From a bacterium (GTDB lineage Bacteria > Electryoneota > AABM5-125-24 > Hatepunaeales > Hatepunaeaceae): a stretch of 54,845 nt of DNA. Made by a program: the position numbers and the translations under genes. The notes under the pieces were generated by a model that saw only the letters and a program-made list of their open reading frames with translations, was not told where the DNA came from and searched no databases. This document shows positions 14,192 through 41,753 of the stretch, in pieces (within the stretch, counting starts at the first letter, position 1; the number at the start of each line of letters is the position of its first letter). The stretch covers positions 1-54,845 of the forward strand of contig JALGVR010000007.1 of assembly GCA_025774605.1 (NCBI GenBank), written 5' to 3'.

Positions 14192-14208
14192 AGTAGAAGG
14201 AATTATCA

Positions 14209-16468: not shown

Positions 16469-16489
16469 AAGCTCATAAATTTTAAAGTG

Positions 16490-16552: not shown

Positions 16553-16607
16553 AAGTAATAAAATAGCTTGTTAGTACATTTACTTTTTAATATACACGAG
16601 GCAATCA

Positions 16608-25782: not shown

Positions 25783-25783
25783 G

Positions 25784-28732: not shown

Positions 28733-30157
28733 TCAAAAACCGGCGCCTGACAACCTCAACTGTTCCGCAATCCTCCCTCCAGCCTTGCCATCAAGAGGCC
28801 CGCAATCTGACTCACGGGCTCGCCTGCGCCCCTCGGCGTCAAGCTCGGGTTGCTCCAGGTATTGATTAATCAGTTCGATGCACTGTTCGGGGTCGCGAGC
28901 CAGGCGGGAAGTGCCGTAATCCATCATCTGTTTCACGTCGGATCGGGTATAGAAGCGACGCACGGAACACCCCGGGTTCGTATCCGCCGGAATATCGTAA
29001 TAAACATTCACCGTCGGTTTGTCGAGGATCGCCGAGTCGATGGTCATCGTGCCGCAGACGTTGACCTGCACGTCCTGGTAGGCAAGCGTCGCCAGGTGCA
29101 GCGGTTCGTCCTCCAGGATCAACCTGACCACCTGCGCCTCGTGCTCAGGGCTCTGATATTTGAAGCCGACTGGTTTGGGGAAGGCTTTGGCTTCGGGATA
29201 TTCCCGGTGCAACAGTCTCAGATCAGAGCCGAACATGCGCGGATGTCCCCTGACCAGCAACTGGGCGCCGCGGGCGAACCTGCCGTGATGCGCCGCATCG
29301 GCAAGATGCTGTGTAATGTTTATCTCGTGATCAATCAGCCCGGGAGTGGCGGTTGTGTAAACGATCAAGGGTCGAGTCGAGTCCAATTCCATCCTTTCGA
29401 AGAACTCGCGGCGATCAAGACGGTATCGGGGATCAAGATGATGATCGAACTGCGGGGAGCCGGTAACGATCACGCTGTCCGGATTGACCTCGGGATACAT
29501 CTTGAGAAAGAAACTCCGGGTTACGTCAGACCAGACCAGATACCGGTCCGCAAGCGGAAGATGAAGTATTTTCGATGAGAGGTTGTCGCGTGACCTGATC
29601 ATCACCATGGTTGGAACGCCCTCAGTGCGCGCCGCCTCCAACAGCAGCATTTCGCGCAGCCCCTCGGGTGAAAACCCCGCCACAATCCGCGCATCAAGTT
29701 GCTTGAAAAGACGGCGGTATTCGTCGGCGGCACTCAGCGATCCGAGTTGTCCGGCGACCTTCCTTCGCCAGCGAATCGCCTGACCGATGGCGCCAGCCAG
29801 CCAGCCTGAAGCGAATTCGGCGAGGCGCTTCGCCAGGCTCACAGCGAGCCGCGTCCGGGACCGGTCGGCATAGGCTCGACGCGATGTGGCGATCATCTTG
29901 TTCCACCGTGTAACCGGGTCGTAAAACGTCTTGCGGGCAAGGTTGGCGCGGTCGGCAAGGGCATGCAGAGCCGGCTCGGTCTCAATACGGAAGTCCTGCA
30001 ACGGCTCTATCCTGACATTCCCGGGAGCCGCGAGACGACTGCCTTCCAGTTGGTTCGGATCGACAAGCACGACCAGGTTGTCCAGATGTCGACCAAGGTC
30101 CCCGTTCCGCACGTTACGCAGGGCAAGAAAGCTGTCGCAGCCGATGATCACCGACAC
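28733..30157 (-). CDS. GT-B fold transferase (CDP-glycerol glycerophosphotransferase-like; candidate CMP-ulosonate transferase)
   Basis: Start moved to GTG 30157 behind GGGGAG; VTGSPQFD, LLVRGHP, GTMTIDSAILDKPTV. Confidence 0.7.
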   Translation of the reverse strand: MSVIIGCDSFLALRNVRNGDLGRHLDNLVVLVDPNQLEGSRLAAPGNVRIEPLQDFRIETEPALHALADRANLARKTFYDPVTRWNKMIATSRRAYADRSRTRLAVSLAKRLAEFASGWLAGAIGQAIRWRRKVAGQLGSLSAADEYRRLFKQLDARIVAGFSPEGLREMLLLEAARTEGVPTMVMIRSRDNLSSKILHLPLADRYLVWSDVTRSFFLKMYPEVNPDSVIVTGSPQFDHHLDPRYRLDRREFFERMELDSTRPLIVYTTATPGLIDHEINITQHLADAAHHGRFARGAQLLVRGHPRMFGSDLRLLHREYPEAKAFPKPVGFKYQSPEHEAQVVRLILEDEPLHLATLAYQDVQVNVCGTMTIDSAILDKPTVNVYYDIPADTNPGCSVRRFYTRSDVKQMMDYGTSRLARDPEQCIELINQYLEQPELDAEGRRRARESDCGPLDGKAGGRIAEQLRLSGAGF

Positions 30158-30173: not shown

Positions 30174-31244
30174 TCATCCCTCTTGATCGAGAATGGCCGA
30201 TTCGACGAGCTCACAGACCGCATGCCAGGCGAGGATATGGAGCTCCTGGATGCGGGGTGTGGATTGCGAAGGCGCCTGGAAGCAAATATCGCAGAGCTTT
30301 TTGATCTTCGCGGGTTTGGCTCCGGTAAACCCGATGGTCGTCGCGCCGATTTCCCGCGCGGCTTCGAGACCCTTCAATACATTGGGTGAATTACCGCTGG
30401 TGCTGATCCCGGCAACGAGATCACCGCTCTTTCCCAGAGCCCGAACCTGCCTGGAGAATATCCGGCTGTAATCCCAGTCGTTTCCGACGCAGGTGAGGAC
30501 AGAACTGTCGGTCGTCAACGCGATCGCCGCCCAGGGCGGGCTCTCCTTGAGGAAGCGTCCGACCAGCTCACCGGCGATGTGCTGCGCGTCCGCGGCGCTG
30601 CCGCCGTTGCCGAACAACAGCATTTTATGTCCACTGCGGATAGTTCCGATCATTGCCTGAGCCACTTCGGCGAGTACTTCAAGGTGTCTCTCATTCAGGG
30701 AGCGATGGGCGATGATGCTGTCTTCAACTATCGAGGCGATGCCGTCGACGAGAGGTTTACGGTTTTCCGCCATATCGCGCATTATTATGACCAGGTTCAC
30801 AGCTTCAGCCACCGCGCCTCCACCGCCGGGATTGGATAGCACACGATCTGCGGCGGCTTTGGCCGCCGTGGAAGCATCGGAGGGAGCCAAACCAAGTCCG
30901 GCGATCTCGAGAGCGGCTGCATCCCGATCGCCGTCACCGATGTAGCAGATCGACGCGAGATCGACACCCAAATCTCCGGCGAGCTTATTCAGTCCGGCAT
31001 CCTTGTCCTTCATGCCGCGCACGACATGCTTGACCTCAAATCGATCAGAAATCCGGTCGACCGCGGCTGTTGATTCGGCGGTGAGGAAGGCGACCTTGAG
31101 ACCTTCCCGCCGCGCCCTGAAAATCGCGTCCAGATCGCGAAAGAAAACCTGCTTGGCTTCGGTTTTACCATCGACAAGCAGGGCTCTGCCATCGGTAAGC
31201 ACGCCGTCGATGTCGCAGACTATGGCTTTGATAAACCCGCGCAT
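30174..31244 (-). CDS. gmhA: Fusion of a KdsC-like HAD phosphatase (N) and a GmhA-type SIS phosphosugar isomerase (C)
   Basis: Start moved to ATG 31244 behind GAGGGGGTG; CDIDGVLTDG, YIGDGDRD, SNPGGGGAVAE; FGNGGSAADAQHIAGELVGRF, GISTSGNS, TPRIQELH. Confidence 0.9.
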   Translation of the reverse strand: MRGFIKAIVCDIDGVLTDGRALLVDGKTEAKQVFFRDLDAIFRARREGLKVAFLTAESTAAVDRISDRFEVKHVVRGMKDKDAGLNKLAGDLGVDLASICYIGDGDRDAAALEIAGLGLAPSDASTAAKAAADRVLSNPGGGGAVAEAVNLVIIMRDMAENRKPLVDGIASIVEDSIIAHRSLNERHLEVLAEVAQAMIGTIRSGHKMLLFGNGGSAADAQHIAGELVGRFLKESPPWAAIALTTDSSVLTCVGNDWDYSRIFSRQVRALGKSGDLVAGISTSGNSPNVLKGLEAAREIGATTIGFTGAKPAKIKKLCDICFQAPSQSTPRIQELHILAWHAVCELVESAILDQEG

Positions 31245-31299
31245 CACCCCCTCTGATTTTATGGGTTGCATAAGAATTTTACTGTTCACACGACTTTGT

Positions 31300-32304
31300 T
31301 TATCCAGCAATATTATAGCCAAATGAATACCGGAGGTGCTTCTTGATAAAGGTTAACAGCATTGCTTGCTCATCAGCGGTAAGTTCATCCAACTGGTTAA
31401 TTTTACCGGAACGCCCCATTTTAACATATCTTATATCGTCAATCCCTTTTCTCTTCATTTCATATTCCCGCTCTCGTTCAATCGACGTAAGCTTAATGGA
31501 GTATTCAACAAGAGGCGTTGGAATATCATCAATCCCAAGAAATCCAGTAAATTTCATAAACGTCTCCAAAGGTTCATTAATCAACTCTTCGTATCTGATT
31601 ATTAAATAGTCGTGAAACTTACCACTCTCTAAAGCATAACCCCAGGAGTTCAGAAATTTCATCATATTCAGAGGTGGAGCAAGATTCAAATATGATTCAA
31701 AATCATGATTCTCGAAGAACTTACCGAAATAATACTTCGAGATTAAGATGTCACAGGGATTCCTGATCTGTAAGACAAGTCTGCGATGGTTTGTCCAGGG
31801 GAGACAGCTGTTGTGACTATGCATCAATCTTGGAACGGGTACATGATATCTGAACCTGTTCTCTCCAAAGGTTGTGTTGTATTGACCGGTCACCGGTTCA
31901 TAGAAAAGCCTCCGGTGGTCATCCAGAATATCCAGGTTCAATTCCAGATCATAGAATTGTTTTGCCATAACTACTGTATATACATGTGATAACCACGTGA
32001 AACCCGATCGTTGTACCGTGAACCATAGAACATCGTTCTGGCGCGGATACCAATGCCACATGGTCCTGGCGGTTCTTGCCAACGCCTTAAATATATCTCT
32101 CTTGCGGTAATCATCATACCTGGTGCCCAGCAGAGATTTTATGTATCTCTTTAACGGCGCAATCGCCAGATGCCAAGGGTAGTTACGCATCAGGAATACT
32201 CTGATCGGAGATACCGGACGATGGTAATGCGTCAACCGACCCTCTGCGGACTTCCTCTGTTCAGCAATCGAGGGTTGATACAGCAGCTCGCGCTGATTTA
32301 CCAC
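31300..32304 (-). CDS. Sulfotransferase domain protein
   Basis: 5'-PSB-like TVQRSGFTWL, 3'-PB-like RNPCDILIS, and YEEL; AT-richer than its neighbours. Confidence 0.8.
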   Translation of the reverse strand: MVNQRELLYQPSIAEQRKSAEGRLTHYHRPVSPIRVFLMRNYPWHLAIAPLKRYIKSLLGTRYDDYRKRDIFKALARTARTMWHWYPRQNDVLWFTVQRSGFTWLSHVYTVVMAKQFYDLELNLDILDDHRRLFYEPVTGQYNTTFGENRFRYHVPVPRLMHSHNSCLPWTNHRRLVLQIRNPCDILISKYYFGKFFENHDFESYLNLAPPLNMMKFLNSWGYALESGKFHDYLIIRYEELINEPLETFMKFTGFLGIDDIPTPLVEYSIKLTSIEREREYEMKRKGIDDIRYVKMGRSGKINQLDELTADEQAMLLTFIKKHLRYSFGYNIAG

Positions 32305-33134
32305 GCCGTCCTGCCTCCGTCAACATGAACGTTTGCACCCGTCATATAGGACGACGCATCCGAAACCAGGAACACGACAACGGCTTTGTATTCATCCGGC
32401 TGCGCCATCCTGCCGAGCGGGATCAGCTGTGTGAGTCGCTCGACGAAGTCCGGTGGCTGCCGGTTGTAGACTCCTCCCGGCGAAATTGCATTGACACGCA
32501 CACCCTTGTCAGCCCAGTAAGTCGCCAGGTATTTCGTCAGCCCCACCAGACCGGCTTTCACAATTGAATAGGTGACCGGTTTGACCGGCTGTTGATCATC
32601 CGGAATGCCCGGTTTGCGGTAGATACGCTGGTCGGGCCCGATCACGCTCAGATCAGAAGCAACGTTCAGGATTACCCCCCTGCCCGCGCGCGCCATCTCA
32701 GCGCCGAACAGCCGGCTGCAGTGAAAAGCGCCGGTCAGTCCCACCGCAATATCCTTCTCCCAGACATCAAGCGGAAAGTTTTCGAAGCGCGTCCATTGCT
32801 GTCCGGATCCGTTTTCCGCCTTGGGATTGTTGGCGGCGTTGTTGATCAGAATGTCGATCCCGCCGAATTCGTCGATGATTCTGTCGCGGGCTCTTTCGAC
32901 CTGAGCCGGGTTGGTGATGTCCGCTCCCATACCGAGCGCCTTAACGCCGTATTGCAGCGATACCGTCTTCGCCGCCTCCCGAGCCCTCTCCCCGTACAGG
33001 TCGAGCAGCACCGGCGAAGCGCCCTGCTCGGCAACGGCTTCAGCGTGCTTGACACCCAGCAGCCCCGCGCCGCCGGTGATCACCGCGACCCGGCCGGTAA
33101 GATCGAAAGCCTTCCTGACGTCATCAAGGCTCAC
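32298..33134 (-). CDS. SDR oxidoreductase (PtmA/ElaC-like)
   Basis: TGGAGLLG, NNAA, YSIVK, RVNAISPGG, DGGRTAW. Confidence 0.88.
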   Translation of the reverse strand: MSLDDVRKAFDLTGRVAVITGGAGLLGVKHAEAVAEQGASPVLLDLYGERAREAAKTVSLQYGVKALGMGADITNPAQVERARDRIIDEFGGIDILINNAANNPKAENGSGQQWTRFENFPLDVWEKDIAVGLTGAFHCSRLFGAEMARAGRGVILNVASDLSVIGPDQRIYRKPGIPDDQQPVKPVTYSIVKAGLVGLTKYLATYWADKGVRVNAISPGGVYNRQPPDFVERLTQLIPLGRMAQPDEYKAVVVFLVSDASSYMTGANVHVDGGRTAW

Positions 33135-34003
33135 ATGCCGACCCGGCGGAGTTTTTTCATTATGGGGATCTCCTCATCGTAGACCCGTTTCACGCCGTCG
33201 CCCAATGCCTTTTCCACGGCTCTAACGTCCTTGATCAGACGGCTGAATCCGTGAGGCTCGACCGACGCCGCCTGGTCGCTGCCCCACATCGCCCGGTCGA
33301 GCGTGATATGCCGCTCGATCACACAGGCGCCCAGAACCGCGGCGGCAACTGAAGTCGCGAGTCCGACCTCGTGACCGGAATACCCGACCGGCATATCGTA
33401 TCGGGCACGCAGCGATTCTATCACCCGCAGGTTCAGGTTCTCAACCTTCGAAGGGTACGTACTGTTGGTGTGCAGCAGTATCGTCCTGTCCGTACCGAGT
33501 ATCTCGAGCGCGTGATCTATCTGTTCGAGCGTGCTCATCCCCGACGAGATGATAATGGGACGCCCCTTCGCGACGTGATGCTTCAACAGGTCGTCGTCGG
33601 TCAGCGAAGCCGAAGCGATCTTGTAGCAGGGCGGGTTGAACTGCTCGATGAAATCCACCGAAGCCTCGTCCCAACAGGAGGCGAACCATTCGATTTTCTT
33701 CTCCCTGCAGTAACGATCGATCTCGGCGTATTCCTCCCGGCCGAATTCCAGACCGCGCTTCAGGTCGCCGTTGGTCGGACCGAACGGATTTTCCCGCGGC
33801 CTGGCGAGTTCTTCCGGGCTGTAAACAACCTCAACCGTCCGTTTCTGGAACTTGACCGCGTTGCTGCCGGCAAGGGCCGCCGCATCGATCAGCTTCTTGG
33901 CGATCCCCATGTCTCCGTTGTGATTGATGCCTATCTCGGCGACGAAATATACGGGTTGACCATCACCGACGAGTGAATCGCCTATCTTTATGGTTCCATT
34001 CAT
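33131..34003 (-). CDS. neuB: NeuB-family PEP-dependent ulosonate synthase, short form without C-terminal SAF domain
   Basis: AEIGINHNGD, AVKFQKR, KIASA, GYSGHE, IERHITLDR; ends at 290 aa. Confidence 0.9.
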   Translation of the reverse strand: MNGTIKIGDSLVGDGQPVYFVAEIGINHNGDMGIAKKLIDAAALAGSNAVKFQKRTVEVVYSPEELARPRENPFGPTNGDLKRGLEFGREEYAEIDRYCREKKIEWFASCWDEASVDFIEQFNPPCYKIASASLTDDDLLKHHVAKGRPIIISSGMSTLEQIDHALEILGTDRTILLHTNSTYPSKVENLNLRVIESLRARYDMPVGYSGHEVGLATSVAAAVLGACVIERHITLDRAMWGSDQAASVEPHGFSRLIKDVRAVEKALGDGVKRVYDEEIPIMKKLRRVGM

Positions 34004-34086
34004 CTGGTAAACCTTGTCTGTTTGTAAATCGAAAATAAACGGTTTAGTTACCTAATTAATGAGTGCGGTTTATACCTGGGTGCAGC

Positions 34087-34182
34087 TTGGAGGGCGGACA
34101 TTCCTGTCCGCCTTGAAACCCATGCCATACAATCACTTGGACGGACTGGAATGTCCACCTTGAAACCGGCGCCACACAACCA
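34087..34182. repeat. REP-like pair of the GGAGGGCGGACATTCCTGTCCGCC family
   Basis: Matches the reverse complement of about 4086-4138 including the linker (TGAAACC...ATACAA). Confidence 0.75.
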
Positions 34183-34203
34183 GGCTCATGCGCCCTTCCC
34201 CAT

Positions 34204-34959
34204 TCACACCGGATGCCTGCCGCTTCTGTCCAGCCTCTCCAGGGTTCCCGCCTGCAGCCTCTTCAGCGCGGCTTCGCACGGCGGTATGTTCTCCGGGTAG
34301 TCCAGCTCGAACATGTGCTCCTCCACGATCAACGGGAGCACAACCTCCCCCCACATCGAGTTCTTCTCCATCACGGCGCGCGGCCTGATAACGTCTACAT
34401 AGCCGTTCTGCCAGTAGACAATCGGCAACCGCTGACGCGGGATCGACTGGCAGTCTTTGACGCCTTCAAGCCTGAGCAGCGGTTTCAGGGTGCCGTCCGC
34501 ATCGATCCGCCACATCTTGTAGGGCGTCTGCTCGGCAAGCGTAACGCTGCGCACCGCATCGGCTTCGGGATGGTGAGCCAATAGATCGACGGCATCGTCG
34601 ATAAGCTCGATCCGGCGCACCGGATTGGTCGGTCGCAAATGGACGACCATATCGGGCAGGCTTTCCCCGTTCTCCCTGATCCAGTTGAAGTAGTGGCGAA
34701 AGACGTCTATATCGGGGGAACCGTCCCGGGCGAATTCGTCCGGCCGCAGGAACGGCGCTTCAGCGCCGTATTGCCTGGATACTTCGGCGATCTCCGGGTC
34801 GTCCGTCGATACGATCACGCGGTCGATCCTGCTTGAATCGAGAGCGTGCTTGATGGTGTAGCTGATAAGCGGTTTCCCCAGTAACTGCAACAGGTTCTTC
34901 CGGGGTATCCCTTTCGATCCGCCGCGCGCCGGAATCAAGGCCGTAACGATGTCAGGCAT
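34204..34959 (-). CDS. neuA: Acylneuraminate cytidylyltransferase (second NeuA-family enzyme)
   Basis: Start moved to ATG 34959; ALIPARGGSKGIPRKN, VSTDD, LRPTNPVR, YWQNG. Confidence 0.9.
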   Translation of the reverse strand: MPDIVTALIPARGGSKGIPRKNLLQLLGKPLISYTIKHALDSSRIDRVIVSTDDPEIAEVSRQYGAEAPFLRPDEFARDGSPDIDVFRHYFNWIRENGESLPDMVVHLRPTNPVRRIELIDDAVDLLAHHPEADAVRSVTLAEQTPYKMWRIDADGTLKPLLRLEGVKDCQSIPRQRLPIVYWQNGYVDVIRPRAVMEKNSMWGEVVLPLIVEEHMFELDYPENIPPCEAALKRLQAGTLERLDRSGRHPV

Positions 34960-36028
34960 CGGTAATCCCCGTTGCTTCACCGCTGTTCAGCGAGGCGTGA
35001 GCGGCAAGTGATATCAGGACGCTGCGGCGACCCTCATGAAGATCTATCAACGGTTCAGCATTCCCGGCGATGCAATCGAGGAAATGATTGAGCTCGTCGA
35101 TGAACATCTGGTTGCGCTGAAACTGATGGAAGGTTGTGATCTCCGTCGTCCGCGCCTCTGTATCATATACGACGACTTCGTTCGCGTAGTAATCATAGCG
35201 CAACCTGCCGGCATCGCCGACGATCTCGCAGACACGCTGCGGAGGCCGCTGCAGGTAGTCGAGATGTATGTGCAACGGCAGCGGACGTCCTTCGAATTCG
35301 CAGTCGAGCAGGATGCTGACCGAATCTTCGACGTCCGTTTCCAGCCGGCTCAACTGACCACCAACCGCGTAAACACGGCGCGGCATGCCAAGCAGCCATA
35401 AGCCGAGATCGAGCTCATGGGTCTGGATGTTCAGGCAGCCGCCGCCAAGGTCTCTTCGAGCCGGATGAGTCTCGCGATAGTCCTCGTACGGGTGCCAGTC
35501 GGGGATGTATTCGCCGTTGACGATATGCGCCGCAATAACTCGACCGAGCCTGCCCGAATCAATGATCTCCTTAACCTTCTTCATGCCCGGGTGGAAGCGG
35601 AACTGATAAGCGACAAAGGCGGTCAGTTTCTTTCGTGCGACGGCTTCAATCAGTTCATCAATCCCTTCAACCGTCTCCGCCAGCGGCTTCTCGATGAACA
35701 GATGACAGCCGGCATCAGCCGCGGCGCGGGCTGCCGGCAGATGAAACGGGTTGGGGTTGGTGATGAAGGCAACGTCCGGCTTGTCGTTCAACGCCTCATC
35801 GAGCGAGCGGAACAGCTTCACGTTATATTTTTCAGCGAGGCTTGCGCCGGGAATAATCCCGCCCTGATCGTCAAGCACATAATCCAGGCCGCGCGCACGG
35901 TAAGCGATTATTTCAACATCCTCACCGAGCAGGAACCGCAGGTTTCGCAGATGACGCTGTCCGATCGAACCGAGTCCGCAAAACAGAGCCCTCCGAAACG
36001 GCAGATCCTTTTGATTACTTTCGATCAT
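34952..36028 (-). CDS. Gfo/Idh/MocA family oxidoreductase (PtmF/ElaA-like)
   Basis: GLGSIGQRH, FIEKPL, HELDL, GGGCL. Confidence 0.88.
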   Translation of the reverse strand: MIESNQKDLPFRRALFCGLGSIGQRHLRNLRFLLGEDVEIIAYRARGLDYVLDDQGGIIPGASLAEKYNVKLFRSLDEALNDKPDVAFITNPNPFHLPAARAAADAGCHLFIEKPLAETVEGIDELIEAVARKKLTAFVAYQFRFHPGMKKVKEIIDSGRLGRVIAAHIVNGEYIPDWHPYEDYRETHPARRDLGGGCLNIQTHELDLGLWLLGMPRRVYAVGGQLSRLETDVEDSVSILLDCEFEGRPLPLHIHLDYLQRPPQRVCEIVGDAGRLRYDYYANEVVVYDTEARTTEITTFHQFQRNQMFIDELNHFLDCIAGNAEPLIDLHEGRRSVLISLAAHASLNSGEATGITDA

Positions 36029-36198: not shown

Positions 36199-36546
36199 CT
36201 AAAACTCGGGTTCATAAGCGGTATGCAGACCGATGAGTCGGTTCTCCCCGTCCGTCACCGGAAGCACTGTCACCATCTCCTTTTTGAGGATTGTCCTCCC
36301 CGTTTCGGGATCAGTTTCAAGGGTTGTTATACAATTGATGTTCATAATCGAACTTACGGGGGTGATTTTTATTGCATTCCGCAGAAACGCCCTCCGGACG
36401 TCACCGTCGCTGACCGTGCCAAGTACCCGATTATCTGAAACAACAATGACAACCCGATGCTTATTCCTATCGATCTTCTGCATTGCGGTATAAACTGTAT
36501 CGGTGGGATCGACAATGAAATCTTCGATGCTCTCTGTCAGATACAT
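36199..36546 (-). CDS. Stand-alone CBS-pair protein
   Basis: Two CBS-like repeats (VLGTVSDGDVRRA, VLPVTDGENRLIG) and no catalytic domain. Confidence 0.8.
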   Translation of the reverse strand: MYLTESIEDFIVDPTDTVYTAMQKIDRNKHRVVIVVSDNRVLGTVSDGDVRRAFLRNAIKITPVSSIMNINCITTLETDPETGRTILKKEMVTVLPVTDGENRLIGLHTAYEPEF

Positions 36547-36547: not shown

Positions 36548-37705
36548 TTAGTATGTTAATCCTTTCTTTATCAGTTTATCATCAATTGGAATTTCCTTCA
36601 GCACCCGCACAATTCTCTCCGACACTTTTCCATCACCCATGTACGGGTGTCGCGATTCCCTCACAAGCGTGAGAAATTCGGGCTTCAACGCGCGTTCTAT
36701 GGCTTCCCGGATCCTTTCACGTTCGGCGGGGACGTTAATCACGTTGGCGCCGTGGGCTCTTCCGCGTTGACGTTCACCGATATTTACAACAGGGAGGTTG
36801 AATGTGGGCGCCTCGATAAGCCCGCTGCTGCTGTTGCCAACCAGCACATCGGCAACATTCATCAATCCCAGATACCTGCCGCGCGGCAGGTTTCTGAATA
36901 TCTTGATGAACGGGCGTTTATTGGCTTCGATCCAGAGCCTGATGGTTTCGTTGTAGGCATCGTTGTTCGGGAATACAATCACCGTCTGATATTCGAATCC
37001 AAGTATCGCATTATATGTCTCCTGTATCTGTTCCAGACTTTTGTCGTATTCTTCGGATGTCGGATGCTGAACCATCAGGATCATCGGCGACGCCAGATCG
37101 ATCCCTATCTCCTTTTCAATCAATTCCGGGGGATCGTAGCTTCCCCTCACAAGCTCGTCAAGTTGCGGCGCCCCGGTCTTATGGATTCTGAATCCCTGTT
37201 CACCGCTTTTAATCAGTCTTTGCGCGGCGTCTTCATTTGATGCAAAATGAATGTGACTGAAGCGTGCGATCGCATGACGGCTCTGTCCATCGATGTGTCC
37301 GGAAACTTCGCCCGCCTGAATATGCGCAATCGGAATATTCATATGCGCCGCGGCGATCGCCGCCATCAGCTGTTCGCCCCGGTCGCCCGCCAGCAGTAAA
37401 ATATCAGGGGACAAACGGGAGAGCACATCCACAAAAGACCACAGAAAACCGGCAAGCGATTTGGTCATTGTTGCCGGCGTGTAACCGTCCAAAGCCATAT
37501 ATATGCGATCCGATATTGCGAAGCCGTCCTCCTCAATTTCCCTGACACTCAAGCCGAAACTCGGTAAGAGATGCATATTCGTAACTACGAGCCTGTAATC
37601 CAGGTCGGGGTCTTTTTCAATCAGGCGAAGAATCGGTCGGATATATCCGTATTCACCCCTCGAACCGGTGATCAATCCAATACATCTCAAGCCAGATCCT
37701 CCCAT
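36548..37705 (-). CDS. neuC: UDP/GDP-GlcNAc 2-epimerase, hydrolysing (NeuC/LegG family)
   Basis: TGSRGEYG, GDRGE, HIQAGEVSG, GNSSSG, GERQRGR, YMGDG. Confidence 0.93.
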   Translation of the reverse strand: MGGSGLRCIGLITGSRGEYGYIRPILRLIEKDPDLDYRLVVTNMHLLPSFGLSVREIEEDGFAISDRIYMALDGYTPATMTKSLAGFLWSFVDVLSRLSPDILLLAGDRGEQLMAAIAAAHMNIPIAHIQAGEVSGHIDGQSRHAIARFSHIHFASNEDAAQRLIKSGEQGFRIHKTGAPQLDELVRGSYDPPELIEKEIGIDLASPMILMVQHPTSEEYDKSLEQIQETYNAILGFEYQTVIVFPNNDAYNETIRLWIEANKRPFIKIFRNLPRGRYLGLMNVADVLVGNSSSGLIEAPTFNLPVVNIGERQRGRAHGANVINVPAERERIREAIERALKPEFLTLVRESRHPYMGDGKVSERIVRVLKEIPIDDKLIKKGLTY

Positions 37706-38712
37706 TTTAAAAGTGTGTTCGCCTTGATATCATCCGCCGCCGTTCGACCGATCACTTCGTTCATCCGGCGCGCGGGGATACCGGTTCCGGGCCGTTTCGA
37801 CCAGACCATCTCGGCGGTGATTTTCTGGCCCTTTCTGATATCCATCCGGGTGACCAGACTTCTGAAAGCCCATTCTCGAACCTGTTTCTCACGCTCGTGC
37901 ACCTTTCGTTCATCACCGGATGCGGCTTCGATCTTTCTTATTCCATCAACCAGTTCATGCAGCTCGTCGAACTCTATCGAGACATCCCTGTCCGGACCAG
38001 GCAGCAGTCGGCTGAGGGTTACATGCTTCTCGAAAACCACCGCCCCAAGGGTTCGCGCCGCAAAACTGGTATAGAGGTCCGGGGTATGGTCGGAATGCCC
38101 GATTACAGCCTTCGGGTACCGGGCGATCATCTTCGGAATTACGCCGAGATTGACATCCTCATACTTGGGAGGATATTCGGAGACGCAGTTGTTCAGAACC
38201 AACTGCATGTTTCGTGAAGACAGGAGATTATAGGTCCGGTCAATCTCTTCCCAACTGCTCATTCCCGTGGAGATGATCATCGGCTTGCCGAAATCCGCGA
38301 TTCTGTCCAGCGTCGGCAGATCGGTCATCTCTCCGGAGCCGATCTTGAATGCCGATACCCCGATTCGTTCGAGTTCCTCCGCTGCCTCCCAGCTGAAGGG
38401 GGTGCAGAGATAGGTTATTCCGATCTGCTCACAATACCTCTTCAGTTCCCGGTGGTCGTCAAGCGTCAGGGCATACTTCTGCAGGAACTCATACAGCGGC
38501 ATATCGAAATTATCCGACATCGGCACATCAGGCAGCATTTCCGTATCAGGCAGGTGATGCTGGTATTTTACGGCATCAACACCCGCCAGCTTGGAGCGCA
38601 AAGCCATCTCCTTCGCCCGCTCCAGATCACCCAGATGGTTGTCGCACGCCTCCGCTATTATATAGGCGGGATGACCCGTTCCGATCCTTCTGTCGTTAAT
38701 GCTTATTTCCAT
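37687..38712 (-). CDS. neuB: NeuB-family N-acetylneuraminate synthase with SAF domain
   Basis: AEACDNH, KIGSGE, GHSDHT, EKHVTL, C-terminal KRPGTGI SAF domain. Confidence 0.92.
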   Translation of the reverse strand: MEISINDRRIGTGHPAYIIAEACDNHLGDLERAKEMALRSKLAGVDAVKYQHHLPDTEMLPDVPMSDNFDMPLYEFLQKYALTLDDHRELKRYCEQIGITYLCTPFSWEAAEELERIGVSAFKIGSGEMTDLPTLDRIADFGKPMIISTGMSSWEEIDRTYNLLSSRNMQLVLNNCVSEYPPKYEDVNLGVIPKMIARYPKAVIGHSDHTPDLYTSFAARTLGAVVFEKHVTLSRLLPGPDRDVSIEFDELHELVDGIRKIEAASGDERKVHEREKQVREWAFRSLVTRMDIRKGQKITAEMVWSKRPGTGIPARRMNEVIGRTAADDIKANTLLKWEDLA

Positions 38713-39425
38713 TTTTCACCGGAGTTTTGCCGCCTCTCCGACAGCAGAATTTTCAACAGTTTAAGATCCAGATCAGTATCGATGTCAATCGAATCCCTCT
38801 CGGACATTATATAACCGGCGATCCTTTCGCCCAGCAACTTCTTCTGATCCAGTATTCTGTCCGCATAAGACGCATAAATCGCGCCGTTTTCCCTGTAAAT
38901 CATGGGTACTTCCTGCCTGCGCACATAATCGGTATGTTTCAATATTCTGACTCTACCATCTTCGTCCAGTTCACACAGGCGATACAGACACCTCTGGGAC
39001 GCCACCAGGCTGACCACGGAATCAGCGCCTGAATCGAGCATCCTGTTTATCGCCTCATCGACATGGCGTCCGTCGCGTAATGGTGTTGTGGGTTGTAATA
39101 AAACAAGGATATCGGGACTATAACTTTCCTTGTCCGCCAGCCATTTCAGGGCATGGATAATTACATCAATTGATGGCGTGGTATCCAATGCCAGCTCCAC
39201 CGGTCTGAGAAAAGGCGCTTCCGCACCGGCCGACAGGGCGATGTCCCTGTATAATGGCGAGTCGGTGCTTACAATCACGCGGTCCGTCATCGTTGCCGAC
39301 AAACCCGCCTCCACGGTATAATCCAGGACTGTTTTATCAACAATCCTGAGGATGTTTTTATCCTTGATCCCCCTCGAACCGGATCGGGCGGGAACCAGCG
39401 CCAATATCTCTTTGTCTTGCGGCAT
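38703..39425 (-). CDS. neuA: Acylneuraminate cytidylyltransferase
   Basis: LVPARSGSRGIKDKN, VSTDS, LLQPTTPLR, NGAIY, DIDTDLD. Confidence 0.92.
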   Translation of the reverse strand: MPQDKEILALVPARSGSRGIKDKNILRIVDKTVLDYTVEAGLSATMTDRVIVSTDSPLYRDIALSAGAEAPFLRPVELALDTTPSIDVIIHALKWLADKESYSPDILVLLQPTTPLRDGRHVDEAINRMLDSGADSVVSLVASQRCLYRLCELDEDGRVRILKHTDYVRRQEVPMIYRENGAIYASYADRILDQKKLLGERIAGYIMSERDSIDIDTDLDLKLLKILLSERRQNSGEKWK

Positions 39426-39531
39426 TATGCTTGTACTTGTCAGGATAATCAGGCCGAACTCTGCTCACTCGCGCCCCTGCAGAACGCGGTGCGCCCGCAA
39501 AAAATGCGGTTCGGGAGTGTCCGGCGGGATT

Positions 39532-40836
39532 TCAGTTATCACCTCGACCATTACCCACTTTCGCCGTCTCCCATTTCACTATCTCCGGCGCCATCAATCC
39601 CGGGCGCGCCTTGCCTCTCGGTCCGCCCAGGCTGAAGAAGGTGCCCTTGTCCGACAGGTCGAAGTAAAACGGTCCCTGGCGATCATACACCACGCCGATC
39701 TTGTTTATGATAAGTCGCAACTGAAATGCGCCCGTATTCAGTATTTTACCGGGCAGGACAACCCTTGAACGATATATCCCCGGTTCCCGCACGATATAAT
39801 GCCCCGGCGCCCAGTCCATGTCCGCCGATCGACAGATAAGCGTGCCGTCGATGCCGTCGAGCATTATCCTCACCGCCGCCCCGTCGATCTTCCGCCGCAC
39901 GATGTACTCCAGCTCGAAGACTGTGTCTTCAAGACGATCGATATACGTGCTTACCTCACCCTTCTCGTTCAATATCTGGAAGCGGGTGAATTGTATCGGC
40001 TTGGCCGGATCCGGTGTAAAGGCATAATCCTGAGTCTTGTCCAACACGTGAGACGTATACTGCTCGATCACCGTATCGATCGGCCCGACAGCCATTACCC
40101 GGCCCTCGTCGAAAAATATCCCCCGGTGACACAGCCGGCTGACCGCGCCCATGTTATGACTCACGAAGATCACTGTTCTGCCTTCGGAAGAAACATCGTC
40201 CATCTTGCCCAGGCACTTACGTTGAAAGGCGACATCACCCACCGCCAGGACTTCATCGACGAGCAGTATCTCCGGCTCCAGATGCGCGGCAACAGCGAAC
40301 GCCAACCGCACCCGCATCCCCGATGAATAACGCTTCACCGGCGTGTCTATAAACTTCTCAACCTCGGCGAACGATACAATCTCGTCGAACTTCAGGTCTA
40401 TCTCCCTTTTCGTCATGCCCAGAATCGAACCGTTAAGATAGATGTTTTCGCGTCCCGTAAGCTCGGGGTGGAAGCCGGTTCCGACCTCCAGCAGCGCGGC
40501 GATCCGTCCGCGGATGGAGGCTCGACCGTAGGTCGGTCCGGTAATCTTCGAAAGTATCTTCAGCAGCGTGCTCTTGCCGGCGCCGTTCTTGCCCACTACC
40601 CCGAGAACCTCGCCGACCTCCATCTCGAACGAGACGTCCCGCAACGCCCAGATCACATCATCGGAATCGTCCGAATTATCATCAAAGGAGGTCAGTCTGC
40701 GCAGGTTCTTGAGGTTCTTCAACGGCTGCCTGACTAAATCGGCAAGCGCCCCCATGAAGGTGTCGTGAGCCTGCTCCTTGAGCCCTATCCGGTAACGCTT
40801 GGAGATGTTCTCCACGCGGATCGCGATGTCACCCAT
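39532..40836 (-). CDS. wzt: Polysaccharide ABC exporter ATPase with C-terminal carbohydrate-binding domain
   Basis: Start moved to ATG 40836; GKNGAGKST, YSSGM, LLVDEVLAVGD; C-terminal Ig-like extension. Confidence 0.93.
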   Translation of the reverse strand: MGDIAIRVENISKRYRIGLKEQAHDTFMGALADLVRQPLKNLKNLRRLTSFDDNSDDSDDVIWALRDVSFEMEVGEVLGVVGKNGAGKSTLLKILSKITGPTYGRASIRGRIAALLEVGTGFHPELTGRENIYLNGSILGMTKREIDLKFDEIVSFAEVEKFIDTPVKRYSSGMRVRLAFAVAAHLEPEILLVDEVLAVGDVAFQRKCLGKMDDVSSEGRTVIFVSHNMGAVSRLCHRGIFFDEGRVMAVGPIDTVIEQYTSHVLDKTQDYAFTPDPAKPIQFTRFQILNEKGEVSTYIDRLEDTVFELEYIVRRKIDGAAVRIMLDGIDGTLICRSADMDWAPGHYIVREPGIYRSRVVLPGKILNTGAFQLRLIINKIGVVYDRQGPFYFDLSDKGTFFSLGGPRGKARPGLMAPEIVKWETAKVGNGRGDN

Positions 40837-40880
40837 CTGTTCGCTCCGCTCCATGCAAGCGTGCAATTAAAACGCGGATT

Positions 40881-41753
40881 TTACGCCACATCGGCAAAAT
40901 ACCTCTCCATTCGGTAGAAGAAAAACAGACCGCTGATAAAGATCAACGTCGCACTTACACCGCCGACTGCGATCAGGTCCCACGGCATTGGAGTCGTTCC
41001 GATCAGGGAGGAGCGGAAACCCTCAATCACCCCCGCCATCGGATAGAGACCATAAACGAGCCTGTACTGCTCAGGCACCTTGGAAACCGGCCAGACCACC
41101 GGCGCGGAATACATCAGTATCTGCACCACGAAATGGTTGGCATGTTTTATATCCCGGTACTGGACGGAGAGCGCCGACAGCCAGATACCGGCTCCGGACG
41201 CGCAAAATACCATGATCAGGACCAGCAGCGGCAGCGCCAGCGCATTCCAGGTGGGTGTGATTCCGTAATACAGCATCAGAATGGCGAGAAAGAAAAACGA
41301 GATGAAGAAGTCGACCAGCTTGGCGAGCGTTGATGCCAGCGGCAGCACGATGCGCGGGAAGTATATCTTGCCTATCATGTTGGCGCCGGAGACCAGACTG
41401 ACCGACGAGAACGTCAGCGCGGTGGCGAAAAAGGTCCAGGGAATCAGGGCCGTGTAAGAGAAGATCGGATACGGGACGCCGTCGCTGTCGATCCTGGCGA
41501 GTCTGCCAAAGACCACGGAAAACACGATCATCTGGAAAAGAGGGTTGATTATCGCCCAGGTGAAGCCCAGAATGGTCTGCTTGTATAGAATCTTGATATC
41601 GCGCCAGGTGAAGAAGTAGAGCAGCTCGATATATTCCAGGAACTCGCCGAGCCTGATCGCCGCCCAGCCGCTGGCCGGCTTGATGACATTGACCGTCACG
41701 GCGCGTTTGGATTTACCATCAGTGGATCCGACAGATTTATCGTCTATTGTCAT
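40881..41753 (-). CDS. wzm: Polysaccharide ABC exporter permease
   Basis: RDIKILYKQTILGFTWAIINP, LYPMAGVIEGFRS. Confidence 0.93.
   Translation of the reverse strand: MTIDDKSVGSTDGKSKRAVTVNVIKPASGWAAIRLGEFLEYIELLYFFTWRDIKILYKQTILGFTWAIINPLFQMIVFSVVFGRLARIDSDGVPYPIFSYTALIPWTFFATALTFSSVSLVSGANMIGKIYFPRIVLPLASTLAKLVDFFISFFFLAILMLYYGITPTWNALALPLLVLIMVFCASGAGIWLSALSVQYRDIKHANHFVVQILMYSAPVVWPVSKVPEQYRLVYGLYPMAGVIEGFRSSLIGTTPMPWDLIAVGGVSATLIFISGLFFFYRMERYFADVA

What the first reader, a model, noticed from the sequence alone, without database searches (positions are those of the whole stretch)
30174..34959. NeuA + SAF-less NeuB + KdsC-GmhA fusion: candidate route to KDN or an undescribed 10-carbon ulosonic acid
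Seen: one co-transcribed block holds a cytidylyltransferase, a short NeuB-family PEP aldolase, and a single protein joining a KdsC-type phosphatase to a GmhA-type isomerase. No HldE/GmhB/HddA/HddC is recognisable in the window. Established: GmhA converts sedoheptulose-7-P to D-glycero-D-manno-heptose-7-P, and NeuB-family enzymes can condense phosphorylated aldoses followed by a KdsC-family phosphatase and CMP activation (Bacteroides thetaiotaomicron KDN pathway). Inference: the isomerase supplies the aldose-phosphate to the aldolase. Fructose-6-P -> mannose-6-P would give KDN (C9). Sedoheptulose-7-P -> heptose-7-P plus PEP would give a C10 3-deoxy-deculosonic acid, which I do not know of as a surface sugar. 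The fusion would then cover the first and third steps of the pathway.
Basis: partly seen in the sequence, partly recalled or inferred. Interest (0 to 1): 0.75.

Follow-up and report, generated by a model that had tools for sequence, protein, structure and literature searches.

The report
Phosphate-route sialic-acid-like sugar cassette
This gene block is one copy of a widespread but uncharacterised cassette that most likely builds and CMP-activates a Kdn-like acidic surface sugar from a phosphorylated sugar, possibly a never-described ten-carbon one made from a heptose.

Summary
On the minus strand lie a cytidylyltransferase (34204-34980), a 290-aa NeuB with no SAF domain (33131-34003) and a 356-aa fusion of a KdsC-type HAD phosphatase with a GmhA-type SIS isomerase (30174-31244).

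The linkage is not chance. All 9 related loci with the fusion carry the short NeuB within 4 kb. An archaeal locus and many metagenome loci carry HAD, short NeuB and GmhA as separate neighbours. Another clade fuses the cytidylyltransferase to the HAD. Of 24 well-flanked short-NeuB loci, 20 have the HAD and 10 the GmhA-type gene.

So isomerase, then PEP condensation, then dephosphorylation, then CMP activation is well supported by inference. This is the Kdo-pathway logic with different enzymes.

Which sugar is made stays open. All GmhA zinc, catalytic and phosphate-binding residues are kept, which favours heptose-7-P and a C10 acid (about 0.5). Kdn is the main rival (about 0.3).

No paper found describes the cassette, and all homologues come from uncultured organisms. 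It is a new variant of a known kind, and worth testing.

The parts
30174..30737 (-). C-terminal SIS domain of the fusion protein (about residues 170-356): GmhA-type zinc-dependent ketose-phosphate to aldose-phosphate isomerase
   Evidence: PF13580 SIS_2 87 bits; NCBIfam GmhA models 193.8 and 180.6 bits, both below their cut-offs. 187 bits to B. pseudomallei GmhA 2X3Y. The Zn ligands, D61 equivalent and S7P phosphate-binding residues are conserved; the Trp substitutions are clade-specific.
30765..31244 (-). N-terminal HAD domain of the fusion protein (about residues 1-160): KdsC/KDN-9-P-phosphatase-type ulosonate-phosphate phosphatase
   Evidence: NCBIfam KDN-9-P phosphatase 83.9 bits, KdsC 74 bits; no GmhB model among the 25 best of 29 listed. 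PDB KdsC 4UM5 78 bits, BT1713 3E81 68 bits. The DxDGxxTDG and GDxxxD motifs are invariant in 25 homologues.
31300..32304 (-). PAPS-type sulfotransferase inserted in the cassette
   Evidence: PF00685 Sulfotransfer_1 50.4 bits. Sulfotransferases recur beside short NeuB genes in L081/L082 and in L108, L114, L116, L118, L119 and L121; PAPS synthase occurs in L108, L109, L111, L114, L118, L119 and L121.
32298..33134 (-). Classical SDR oxidoreductase (PtmA-like, sugar-acid dehydrogenase-like); tailoring step not assigned
   Evidence: PF13561 160 bits; best NCBIfam hits are gluconate 5-dehydrogenase and KduD-like models, with PRK09186 at 148 bits. 60-66% identical in related cassettes. An SDR is present in 18 of 24 short-NeuB loci.
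33131..34003 (-). Short (SAF-less) NeuB-family PEP-condensing ulosonate synthase
   Evidence: PF03102 259 bits, no SAF. TIGR03569 252.7 bits against a cut-off of 399.65. The family is about 289 aa and 73-87% identical across phyla. Metal and PEP residues are conserved; E134 is Ser, F112 is Trp, and there are extra invariant basic residues.
34204..34980 (-). Cytidylyltransferase no. 2 (NeuA/PseF/LegF-like): CMP activation of the cassette's sugar
   Evidence: PF02348 81.6 bits; PseF model 127 bits, below its cut-off. 54-69% identical in related cassettes. It is fused to the KdsC-type HAD in L107 and L114.
34952..36028 (-). GFO/IDH/MocA NAD(P) oxidoreductase (PtmF-like); tailoring step not assigned
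   Evidence: PF01408 and PF22725. 44-67% identical in related cassettes.
28733..30157 (-). Conserved 474-aa GT-B-fold protein, probable transferase for the CMP-sugar
   Evidence: No Pfam family; weak BFO_1060 glycosyltransferase hit of 46 bits. AlphaFold2 pLDDT 93.8; GT-B fold; best PDB matches are UDP-GlcNAc 2-epimerases and GT-B transferases, TM 0.54/0.67. It lies directly downstream of the fusion in L081-L085, L087 and L088.
36199..36546 (-). Stand-alone CBS-pair protein (115 aa); not conserved in related loci
   Evidence: PF00571. The related loci carry other genes at this position.
36548..37705 (-). NeuC-type hydrolysing UDP-GlcNAc 2-epimerase (second NulO pathway)
   Evidence: TIGR03568 379.6 bits, above its cut-off of 235.9.
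37687..38712 (-). NeuB with SAF domain (second NulO pathway)
   Evidence: PF03102 232 bits plus PF08666 SAF 52.9 bits.
38703..39425 (-). Cytidylyltransferase no. 1 (second NulO pathway)
   Evidence: PF02348 76 bits; PseF model 139.7 bits, below its cut-off.
39532..41753 (-). Wzt-like ABC ATPase (39532-40866) and Wzm/KpsM-like ABC-2 permease (40881-41753): glycan export
   Evidence: PF00005 and PF01061; NCBIfam Wzt/TagH-like and Wzm/KpsM-like hits. The same arrangement occurs in L087, and a Wzt with Wzt_C in L084.

Best explanation
The block is the core of a conserved cassette: GFO oxidoreductase, cytidylyltransferase, short NeuB, SDR, HAD-SIS fusion and a GT-B protein. It makes a CMP-activated 3-deoxy-2-ulosonic acid by a phosphate route. 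Step 1: the GmhA-type SIS domain isomerises a ketose phosphate to a manno-configured aldose phosphate, most likely sedoheptulose-7-P to D-glycero-D-manno-heptose-7-P. Step 2: the SAF-less NeuB condenses it with PEP. Step 3: the fused KdsC-type HAD domain removes the terminal phosphate. Step 4: the cytidylyltransferase makes the CMP-sugar. With a heptose substrate the product is a ten-carbon Kdn homologue, a 3-deoxy-dec-2-ulosonic acid with free-acid mass 298.09. The SDR and GFO enzymes probably epimerise or oxidise it, and the sulfotransferase may sulfate it or its glycan. The GT-B protein transfers it onto a glycan. That glycan also receives a conventional NulO from the neighbouring NeuC/NeuB+SAF/NeuA set and leaves through the Wzm/Wzt exporter. 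What is shown here: domain identities, intact catalytic motifs and conserved linkage. What is inferred: the order of steps, the substrate, the tailoring reactions and the destination.
For: Linkage: all 9 loci holding a full-length fusion (L001-L004, L081-L085) have the short NeuB 0-4 kb upstream at 48-76% identity, whereas among the 71 loci recovered only through a GmhA-type match (L005-L080) only L054 also holds a short NeuB. The cassette proteins are 44-76% identical between loci. The adjacent NeuB+SAF/NeuC/CTP1 set is only 36-42% identical. Unfused versions occur with the same neighbours: the archaeal L054 has HAD, short NeuB, then GmhA, and L156 has GmhA, HAD, then short NeuB. Independent fusions tie the steps together: HAD-SIS here, and CTP-HAD in L107 and L114. 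A NeuB-phosphatase fusion in Leptospira is reported in PMC3438082. In 24 metagenome loci with at least 3 kb on both sides of a short NeuB, a HAD is present in 20, an SDR in 18, a CTP transferase in 16 and an SIS in 10. For the heptose substrate: the Zn ligands H64, E68, Q175 and H183 and residue D61 of B. pseudomallei GmhA (PMC5705639) are conserved. So are the S7P contacts N53, G55, S121, T122, S123, S126, Q173 and E66 of M. tuberculosis GmhA (PMC7705670). Of 39 columns conserved at 90% or more in 74 canonical GmhA sequences, 35 are kept in the fusion family. 22 of 23 NeuB-linked SIS proteins in metagenome loci, and those of L054, L003 and L004, keep the catalytic and phosphate-binding residues, and none carries this clade's Trp238/Trp257/Trp340 set, although the residues at 257 and 340 vary among them. 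Man-6-P is a housekeeping metabolite that needs no dedicated isomerase, and there is no heptose kinase or nucleotidyltransferase in the cassette.
Against: No enzyme was assayed and no product is known; every homologue found is from a MAG or metagenome. 14 of 24 short-NeuB loci have no SIS gene nearby, so the isomerase is dispensable in many contexts. A Man-6-P substrate would also explain that. In this window's clade the SIS domain has clade-specific changes next to catalytic residues: L238W, Y257W, G340W and often R235S. These could mean an altered, possibly shorter, substrate. DMB-MS surveys find Kdn often but higher-carbon ulosonic acids only rarely (PMC8157484), although this cassette is common in metagenomes. 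The HAD domains score on KDN-9-P phosphatase and KdsC models about equally and below their cut-offs. I could not compare the short NeuB with the characterised Kdn-9-P synthase BT1714.
Confidence: 0.5

Rival explanations
1. The pathway logic is the same but the product is Kdn (C9). The SIS domain, or housekeeping enzymes, supply mannose-6-P from fructose-6-P. The short NeuB is a Kdn-9-P synthase, the HAD a Kdn-9-P phosphatase and the cytidylyltransferase a CMP-Kdn synthetase, as in Bacteroides thetaiotaomicron.
For: Among the models scored, the HAD domain is best matched by the BT1713-type KDN-9-P phosphatase model (83.9 bits), and the unfused archaeal HAD nearly reaches its cut-off (170.8 against 180). 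More than half of short-NeuB loci lack an SIS gene, as expected if a housekeeping metabolite is the substrate. Kdn is frequently detected in environmental microbes and sludge EPS while C10 acids are rare (PMC8157484, PMC10483923). SAF-less NeuBs occur in Streptomyces scabiei (PMC8208679), a group whose walls contain Kdn polymers (reference 17 of PMC6200933). The bulky Trp substitutions in this clade's SIS pocket could suit a shorter ketose phosphate.
Against: It gives no reason for the repeated recruitment of canonical GmhA genes next to short NeuBs in bacteria, Lachnospiraceae and archaea. Fructose-6-P to mannose-6-P is normally a PMI reaction. All residues reported to position the 7-phosphate and the C1-C2 reaction centre of S7P are retained. 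All NCBIfam equivalog cut-offs for the Kdn phosphatase are missed.
Confidence: 0.3
2. A different chain length. The module is a non-orthologous replacement of the Kdo pathway (Ru5P to A5P, then Kdo-8-P, Kdo and CMP-Kdo), or it acts on another ketose phosphate, giving a C8 or other ulosonic acid.
For: The four-step logic is identical to KdsD-KdsA-KdsC-KdsB. Several NeuB-linked HADs score slightly better on KdsC than on the Kdn phosphatase model (L107, L114, L086). KpsC/KpsS-type Capsule_synth proteins, a family I recall as Kdo transferases, sit next to short NeuBs in L107-L121. The module occurs in Gram-positives and archaea.
Against: The SIS domain is GmhA-type, not KdsD-type: KpsF and KdsD models score at most 28 bits against about 200 bits for GmhA models. 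The synthase is NeuB-type, whose known substrates are C6 manno-configured sugars. The cytidylyltransferase scores higher on the NulO model PseF (127 bits) than on KdsB models (at most 62 bits).
Confidence: 0.08
3. The HAD-SIS fusion is not part of the NeuB pathway. It makes heptose, as a GmhA plus a GmhB-like phosphatase, for another glycan residue, and merely travels with the locus.
For: GmhA and a HAD phosphatase (GmhB) do work together in nucleotide-heptose synthesis. One related locus, L083, has a GHMP kinase at its edge.
Against: The HAD is KdsC-type, and no GmhB model appears among the 25 best of the 29 matching families listed. No heptose kinase or nucleotidyltransferase is in the window or in the conserved cassette. 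The linkage to the short NeuB holds in every fused locus and in unfused triads. The HAD is fused to the cytidylyltransferase in another clade.
Confidence: 0.05
4. The SIS domain, with the PtmA-like SDR, the PtmF-like GFO enzyme or a neighbouring amidotransferase, makes an amino-sugar phosphate, as reported for PtmA/PtmF in Campylobacter. The short NeuB would then make a neuraminic-type or aminated acid.
For: The SDR, cytidylyltransferase and GFO gene trio resembles PtmA-LegF-PtmF of legionaminic acid clusters (PMC4481668; PRK09186 148 bits). AsnB-like amidotransferases lie in L087 and L088.
Against: There is no amidotransferase, aminotransferase or N-acetyltransferase in the window's operon. 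The SIS domain is GmhA-type, not GlmS-type: the glmS model scores about 20 bits on the related L054 SIS. The amidotransferase is not a conserved cassette member.
Confidence: 0.05

Closest known systems
Bacteroides thetaiotaomicron Kdn pathway (BT1714 Kdn-9-P synthase, BT1713 Kdn-9-P phosphatase, CMP-Kdn synthetase)
   Same: A NeuB-family synthase acts on a phosphorylated aldose, followed by a KdsC-family (C0 HAD) phosphatase and CMP activation. The HAD domains here match the BT1713-based model.
   Different: Here a GmhA-type isomerase is fused to the phosphatase, or encoded next to it. SDR and GFO oxidoreductases and a GT-B protein are conserved members. The HAD misses the BT1713 equivalog cut-off. 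The relationship of the short NeuB to BT1714 could not be tested.
Kdo pathway KdsD-KdsA-KdsC-KdsB
   Same: It has the identical four-step logic: an SIS-fold ketose-P isomerase, PEP condensation, a KdsC-type phosphatase and a CMP-forming cytidylyltransferase.
   Different: Three of the four enzymes come from other families or subfamilies: GmhA-type rather than KdsD-type SIS, NeuB rather than KdsA, and NeuA/PseF-like rather than KdsB. The substrate is therefore expected to be longer than arabinose-5-P.
GmhA of nucleotide-heptose biosynthesis (e.g. B. pseudomallei 2X3Y)
   Same: 187 bits to 2X3Y. All Zn, catalytic and phosphate-binding residues are conserved.
   Different: It is fused to a KdsC-type phosphatase and has no kinase, GmhB or nucleotidyltransferase partner. 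It scores below the GmhA equivalog cut-offs. It carries clade-specific Trp substitutions near the active site.
Animal and Leptospira Neu5Ac-9-P route (NANS/NANP; L. interrogans NeuB-phosphatase fusion, PMC3438082)
   Same: A phosphorylated substrate, and a phosphatase physically or genetically coupled to the synthase.
   Different: There is no kinase or ManNAc-forming step in the cassette. The phosphatase is fused to an isomerase, or in another clade to the cytidylyltransferase, rather than to the synthase. NANS has the SAF/antifreeze-like domain (from memory); this NeuB does not.
CMP-linked C10 alpha-keto acids of Magnetospirillum gryphiswaldense (PMC8157484; bioRxiv 10.64898/2026.04.20.719630)
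   Same: Mass-spectrometric evidence that CMP-activated ulosonic acids longer than nine carbons exist in prokaryotes, with no genes assigned.
   Different: Those sugars are di-N-acetylated Pse/Leg-type. This cassette has no aminotransferase or acetyltransferase and would give a non-aminated Kdn homologue. No link between this cassette and Magnetospirillum was found: L071 has GmhA only.
Legionaminic acid clusters with PtmA-LegF-PtmF (PMC4481668)
   Same: An SDR, a cytidylyltransferase and a GFO oxidoreductase are encoded together beside NeuB and NeuC genes.
   Different: LegB, LegC, LegH and PtmE are not in the operon. An extra SAF-less NeuB and the HAD-SIS fusion sit inside the trio.

Membership tests
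NeuB / N-acetylneuraminate synthase (TIGR03569, PF03102 plus SAF) | NeuB TIM-barrel domain with the metal- and PEP-binding residues | tested here: met
   PF03102 259 bits over the full model. The equivalents of E25, K53, Q55, K129, S132, S154, Y186, S213, H215, E234, H236 and D247 of N. meningitidis NeuB are invariant in 120 family members.
NeuB / N-acetylneuraminate synthase (TIGR03569, PF03102 plus SAF) | C-terminal SAF (antifreeze-like) domain supplying Arg314 to the sugar site | tested here: not met
   No SAF hit; the protein ends after about 290 aa. The family is uniformly about 289 aa. It has a conserved basic C-terminal tail, K284-L-R-R, instead.
NeuB / N-acetylneuraminate synthase (TIGR03569, PF03102 plus SAF) | Score above the NCBIfam equivalog cut-off, and Glu134 present | tested here: not met
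   TIGR03569 252.7 bits against 399.65; PseI 201.8 against 340.25. Glu134 is replaced by Ser in 92% of the family.
GmhA, sedoheptulose-7-phosphate isomerase | Zn ligands H64, E68, Q175 and H183, residue D61, and the phosphate loop S-T-S-G-x-S | tested here: met
   All are present in the window protein. All are invariant or nearly so in 25 fusion proteins (D61 equivalent 84%). The residue list comes from PMC5705639 and PMC7705670.
GmhA, sedoheptulose-7-phosphate isomerase | Score above the NCBIfam equivalog cut-offs | tested here: not met
   PRK13936 193.8 against 276; TIGR00441 180.6 against 209.45.
GmhA, sedoheptulose-7-phosphate isomerase | Works with a heptose kinase, GmhB and a nucleotidyltransferase (HldE, or HddA/HddC) | tested here: not met
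   None is in the scanned ORFs of the window or in the conserved cassette of L081-L088. The rest of the genome is unknown.
GmhA, sedoheptulose-7-phosphate isomerase | Converts sedoheptulose-7-P to D-glycero-D-manno-heptose-7-P | not testable with these tools
   This needs an enzyme assay.
KdsC / KDN-9-P phosphatase (C0-type HAD, YrbI family) | HAD motifs DxDGxxTDG and GDxxxD, with no cap domain (about 160 aa) | tested here: met
   D11, D13, T17, D18, G19, K79/K81, D104 and D108 are invariant. The domain aligns over 150 residues with KdsC 4UM5 and BT1713 3E81.
KdsC / KDN-9-P phosphatase (C0-type HAD, YrbI family) | Score above the NCBIfam cut-offs for KdsC or for KDN-9-P phosphatase | tested here: not met
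   KDN-9-PPhBT 83.9 against 180; KdsC PRK09484 74.4 against 208; TIGR01670 74.2 against 106.95.
B. thetaiotaomicron-type Kdn pathway | Synthase specific for mannose-6-P, giving Kdn-9-P | not testable with these tools
Specificity needs an assay.
CMP-NulO / CMP-Kdo synthetase (PF02348) | CTP_transf_3 fold | tested here: met
   PF02348 81.6 bits. PseF model 127 bits against a cut-off of 205.7; KdsB models at most 62 bits.
Legionaminic acid pathway | LegB dehydratase, LegC aminotransferase, LegH acetyltransferase and PtmE nucleotidyltransferase | tested here: not met
   None is recognisable in the operon or among the scanned ORFs of the window. Only a stand-alone CBS protein is present.

The most novel reading that the evidence does not exclude
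The cassette encodes a widespread, previously unrecognised route to ten-carbon sialic-acid-like sugars: 3-deoxy-dec-2-ulosonic acids made from D-glycero-D-manno-heptose-7-P and PEP. The sugars are CMP-activated, redox-tailored and in some lineages sulfated, and are displayed on the surfaces of many uncultured bacteria and some archaea. This would give the first genetic basis for 'higher-carbon ulosonic acids'.
Probability: 0.45. Interest if true: 0.85.

Novelty: new variant of a known kind. Interest (0 to 1): 0.68.

Why it matters
Sialic-acid-like sugars cap microbial surfaces and shape recognition by phages, immune systems and neighbouring cells. All known ones have eight or nine carbons. Mass spectrometry has hinted at longer ones without any genes to explain them.

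This cassette is common in metagenomes from several phyla. It is annotated only as 'SIS domain protein', 'N-acetylneuraminate synthase family' and 'hypothetical protein', and it offers a concrete enzyme set that can be expressed and tested.

If the heptose route is right, it adds a new class of monosaccharide and a new use for GmhA. If the product is Kdn, it identifies what may be a major environmental Kdn pathway. It would also explain why Kdn and sulfated glycoconjugates are found together in microbial biofilm matrices.

Tried and rejected
1. A GmhB-type reading of the HAD domain. Rejected: the 25 best of the 29 matching NCBIfam families are KdsC, KDN-9-P phosphatase and other HAD models, with no GmhB model among them.
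2. A KdsD-type reading of the SIS domain. Rejected: KpsF and KdsD models score at most 28 bits, against about 200 bits for GmhA models.
3. The genome-contig scan with the fusion alignment was dominated by the generic GmhA motif. Only 4 of 80 loci carried the fusion, and the remaining 71 GmhA-only loci ended up serving as a control.
4. Literature searches for a heptose-plus-PEP or C10 3-deoxy acid found nothing, including zero hits for 'deculosonic' and variants.
5. I tried to read the BT1713/BT1714 and HAD-specificity papers (PMID 18986982, PMC2613614, PMC3966652, PMC4425688). None is held, so the published specificity residues of Kdn-9-P and Kdo-8-P phosphatases could not be checked.
6. The BT1714 sequence could not be obtained, so the short NeuB could not be placed relative to a characterised Kdn-9-P synthase.
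7. Cluster look-up for cultured hosts found only MAG or unnamed members.
8. The supplement of the NulO survey, which might list a DMB mass of 415.13, is not held.
9. Structure prediction of the short NeuB and of the fusion was not run. The tool returns no coordinates, so pocket geometry could not be measured.
10. Terminator and promoter scans gave fewer or no more sites than shuffled controls, and are uninformative beyond showing no intergenic terminator.

Full report
**What is in the window.**
The finding lies in a long minus-strand gene row running from about 41753 down to 28733. In order of transcription the genes are as follows.
- A Wzm/KpsM-like ABC-2 permease (40881-41753).
- A Wzt-like ABC ATPase (39532-40866).
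- Cytidylyltransferase no. 1 (38703-39425).
- A NeuB with a SAF domain (37687-38712).
- A NeuC-type hydrolysing 2-epimerase (36548-37705; TIGR03568 379.6 bits, above its cut-off).
- A 115-aa CBS protein (36199-36546).
- A GFO/IDH/MocA oxidoreductase (34952-36028).
- Cytidylyltransferase no. 2 (34204-34980).
- A 290-aa NeuB without a SAF domain (33131-34003).
- A classical SDR (32298-33134).
- A sulfotransferase (31300-32304).
- The HAD-SIS fusion (30174-31244, 356 aa).
- A 474-aa protein with no Pfam family (28733-30157).

Genes overlap or are separated by at most about 200 bp, and no terminator-like site falls in an intergenic gap. Nothing resembling a heptose kinase, GmhB or heptose nucleotidyltransferase was found among the window ORFs I scanned. 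Those scans covered 42 of the 66 ORFs of at least 150 aa; the rest are mostly overlapping shadow ORFs.

**The fusion protein.**
The N-terminal roughly 160 residues are a cap-less HAD of the KdsC (YrbI) family.
- The best NCBIfam models are the BT1713-type KDN-9-P phosphatase (83.9 bits) and KdsC (74 bits).
- The best solved structures are KdsC 4UM5 and BT1713 3E81.
- The HAD catalytic motifs are invariant in 25 homologues.

The C-terminal roughly 190 residues are a GmhA-type SIS domain, scoring 187 bits against B. pseudomallei GmhA.
- The zinc ligands H64, E68, Q175 and H183 and residue D61, described as conserved in all GmhA orthologues (PMC5705639), are all present.
- The residues reported to hold the 7-phosphate and the C1-C2 centre of sedoheptulose-7-P (PMC7705670) are also present.
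- Of 39 alignment columns conserved at 90% or more in 74 canonical GmhA sequences, 35 are also conserved in the fusion family.
- Every NCBIfam equivalog cut-off is missed for both domains. Neither domain can therefore be filed as an orthologue of GmhA, KdsC or the Kdn phosphatase.

**The linkage is real and old.**
- The fusion family is large. More than 7000 proteins scored below E = 0.001, and the top 120 are all about 355 aa and 53-85% identical. The named ones come from Nitrospirae, Chloroflexi and Acidobacteria MAGs, and cluster members from Polyangiaceae and Myxococcales MAGs.
- In every locus I could read that carries a full-length fusion (L001-L004, L081-L085), the short NeuB lies 0-4 kb upstream at 48-76% identity.
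- In long contigs the whole row recurs: NeuB+SAF, NeuC, CTP1, a variable gene, GFO, CTP2, short NeuB, SDR, HAD-SIS, then proteins of about 480 aa and about 460 aa. L087 also has Wzm/Wzt, and L084 has Wzt.
- The six cassette proteins are 44-76% identical between loci. The neighbouring NeuB+SAF, NeuC and CTP1 are only 36-42% identical. The cassette is therefore the tightly conserved unit.
- As a control, among the 71 loci recovered only through a GmhA-type match (L005-L080), only L054 also held a short NeuB.
- That one locus, L054, is from a Nitrosopumilaceae archaeon. It is informative because it carries three separate adjacent genes: HAD (170.8 bits on the Kdn-phosphatase model, cut-off 180), short NeuB, and GmhA (202 bits on TIGR00441, cut-off 209). 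An SDR and a cytidylyltransferase lie nearby.

**A broader sample.**
Scanning metagenome contigs with the short NeuB returned 80 loci at 49-72% identity. Among the 24 with at least 3 kb on both sides, the partners found were as follows.

| Partner gene | Loci of 24 |
|---|---|
| KdsC-type HAD | 20 |
| SDR | 18 |
| Cytidylyltransferase | 16 |
| GmhA-type SIS | 10 |
| GFO oxidoreductase | 7 |
| TPP enzyme | 6 |
| NeuB with SAF | 3 |

- Unfused SIS-HAD-NeuB triads are common, for example L156.
- In a separate clade (L107-L121) the HAD is fused to the cytidylyltransferase instead, as ORFs of 414 and 409 aa in L107 and L114.
- A NeuB-phosphatase fusion is described in Leptospira (PMC3438082).
- These fusions tie isomerase to phosphatase, phosphatase to CMP activation, and synthase to phosphatase.
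- The phosphatase is the near-constant partner of this NeuB clade. That, rather than the missing SAF domain, is the evidence that the clade condenses a phosphorylated aldose.

**Mechanism.**
The best-supported reading has the logic of the Kdo pathway, carried out by other enzymes.
1. A GmhA-type isomerase makes a manno-configured aldose phosphate.
2. The short NeuB condenses it with PEP.
3. The KdsC-type domain removes the terminal phosphate.
4. The cytidylyltransferase forms the CMP-sugar.

The short NeuB keeps all metal and PEP residues of the N. meningitidis enzyme. It replaces Glu134 by Ser and Phe112 by Trp. It also gains invariant basic residues next to the sugar-binding Gln and in a C-terminal K-L-R-R tail. 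This is compatible with an anionic substrate but proves nothing.

The SDR and GFO oxidoreductase are conserved members whose step I cannot assign. Their resemblance to sugar-acid dehydrogenases, and to the PtmA/PtmF pair that flanks LegF in legionaminic acid clusters, suggests oxidation-reduction tailoring or epimerisation of the acid.

The 474-aa protein is confidently modelled (pLDDT 93.8) as a GT-B fold. Its nearest solved structures are UDP-GlcNAc 2-epimerases and GT-B transferases. It always follows the fusion, so it is the obvious candidate transferase.

**Which sugar?**
Arguments for heptose-7-P, and hence a C10 acid:
- The isomerase is GmhA-like in every diagnostic residue.
- Outside this window's clade, the NeuB-linked SIS proteins keep the GmhA catalytic and phosphate-binding residues. 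This holds for 22 of 23 in metagenome loci, and for L054, L003 and L004. None has this clade's Trp substitutions, although the residues at positions 257 and 340 vary among them.
- Man-6-P needs no dedicated isomerase, so a Kdn pathway gives no reason to recruit GmhA repeatedly.
- Patchy presence of the isomerase is what one expects if many hosts already own a housekeeping gmhA.

Arguments for Kdn:
- More than half of the loci lack the isomerase.
- The HADs resemble the Kdn phosphatase.
- Kdn is often seen in environmental microbes, whereas higher-carbon acids are rare (PMC8157484, PMC10483923).
- In this window's clade the SIS pocket carries L238W, Y257W, G340W and often R235S, which might fit a shorter ketose phosphate.

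I put the heptose route at about 0.5, Kdn at about 0.3 and the other readings together at about 0.2. I could not place the short NeuB relative to BT1714, the characterised Kdn-9-P synthase, and that comparison could shift these numbers.

**What is known.**
- Full-text searches found no description of a heptose-plus-PEP product or of this cassette.
- The nearest chemistry is the report of CMP-linked C10 alpha-keto acids in Magnetospirillum gryphiswaldense (PMC8157484; bioRxiv 10.64898/2026.04.20.719630). Those are diacetamido sugars with no genes assigned, and I found no link to this cassette.
- All homologues come from uncultured organisms and are annotated generically.

I therefore rate this a new variant of a known kind: a phosphate-route ulosonic acid pathway with a new enzyme combination. 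It has a substantial chance of yielding a new class of sugar.

**Sulfation.**
The sulfotransferase inside the window's cassette is not an isolated oddity.
- L081 and L082 carry one at the head of the locus.
- In the L107-L121 clade, sulfotransferases lie beside the short NeuB in L108, L114, L116, L118, L119 and L121. PAPS synthase genes lie in L108, L109, L111, L114, L118, L119 and L121. KpsC/KpsS-like Capsule_synth genes lie in nine of these loci.

Sulfated glycans containing this acid are therefore plausible, but this is untested.

Noticed in passing
window 36548-41753: A second, complete nonulosonic acid set (NeuC, NeuB with SAF, cytidylyltransferase) and a Wzm/Wzt ABC exporter lie in the same operon. 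The pairing of two NulO-type pathways recurs in L081-L085, L087 and L088, so the exported glycan probably carries two different ulosonic acids.
   Followed up: partly
window 31300-32304; L114 4284-6113, 10957-11802, 14211-15080; also L108, L116, L118, L119, L121: Sulfotransferases recur next to short NeuB genes, and in one clade a PAPS synthase and a KpsC/KpsS-like Capsule_synth protein do too. This hints at sulfated ulosonic acid glycans.
   Followed up: partly
L003 9147-12822; L004 9142-12844; L090, L094, L097, L148: In Lachnospiraceae flagellin loci and several metagenome loci, the short NeuB and the HAD (with or without SIS) are followed by a roughly 590-aa thiamine-diphosphate enzyme instead of a cytidylyltransferase. 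This could be a branch that decarboxylates the alpha-keto acid.
   Followed up: no
L004 2108-3631: A 507-aa protein fuses a NeuB domain to a cupin domain with weak similarity to D-lyxose isomerase. It is another case of a sugar isomerase joined to a NeuB-type synthase.
   Followed up: no
L107 948-2192; L114 8679-9908: Cytidylyltransferase and KdsC-type HAD are fused in single ORFs of 414 and 409 aa, directly upstream of a short NeuB. As I recall, vertebrate CMP-sialic acid synthetase has the same architecture.
   Followed up: yes
window 14000-17000: A stretch of 38% G+C in a window of about 55% holds two ORFs (14209-15045, 15143-16468) with no family match. It lies between TldD/PmbA paralogues (12609-13952, 16608-18053), and two more TldD/PmbA genes lie at 24460-25911 and 25784-27190. 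It may be a foreign insert in a peptide-maturation-like locus.
   Followed up: no
window 1187-3931 and 44835-48050: Two large secreted proteins have C-terminal sorting tails: Por_Secre_tail on a protein with a fungalysin/thermolysin propeptide motif, and a FlgD_ig-like tail on an S8 subtilase with Ig-like repeats. From what I recall of type IX secretion, this suggests a host from the Bacteroidota-related (FCB) group.
   Followed up: no
window 36199-36546: A stand-alone 115-aa CBS-pair gene sits where related loci carry other variable genes (an AsnB-like amidotransferase, an acetyltransferase or unknowns). Legionaminic acid clusters carry a PtmE nucleotidyltransferase beside PtmF which, as I recall, has CBS domains, so this may be a remnant of one.
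   Followed up: no
window 28733-30157: The conserved GT-B protein has no Pfam family. It belongs to a large unannotated superfamily: 3142 representative clusters at E <= 0.001 and 101 at E <= 1e-30.
   Followed up: partly
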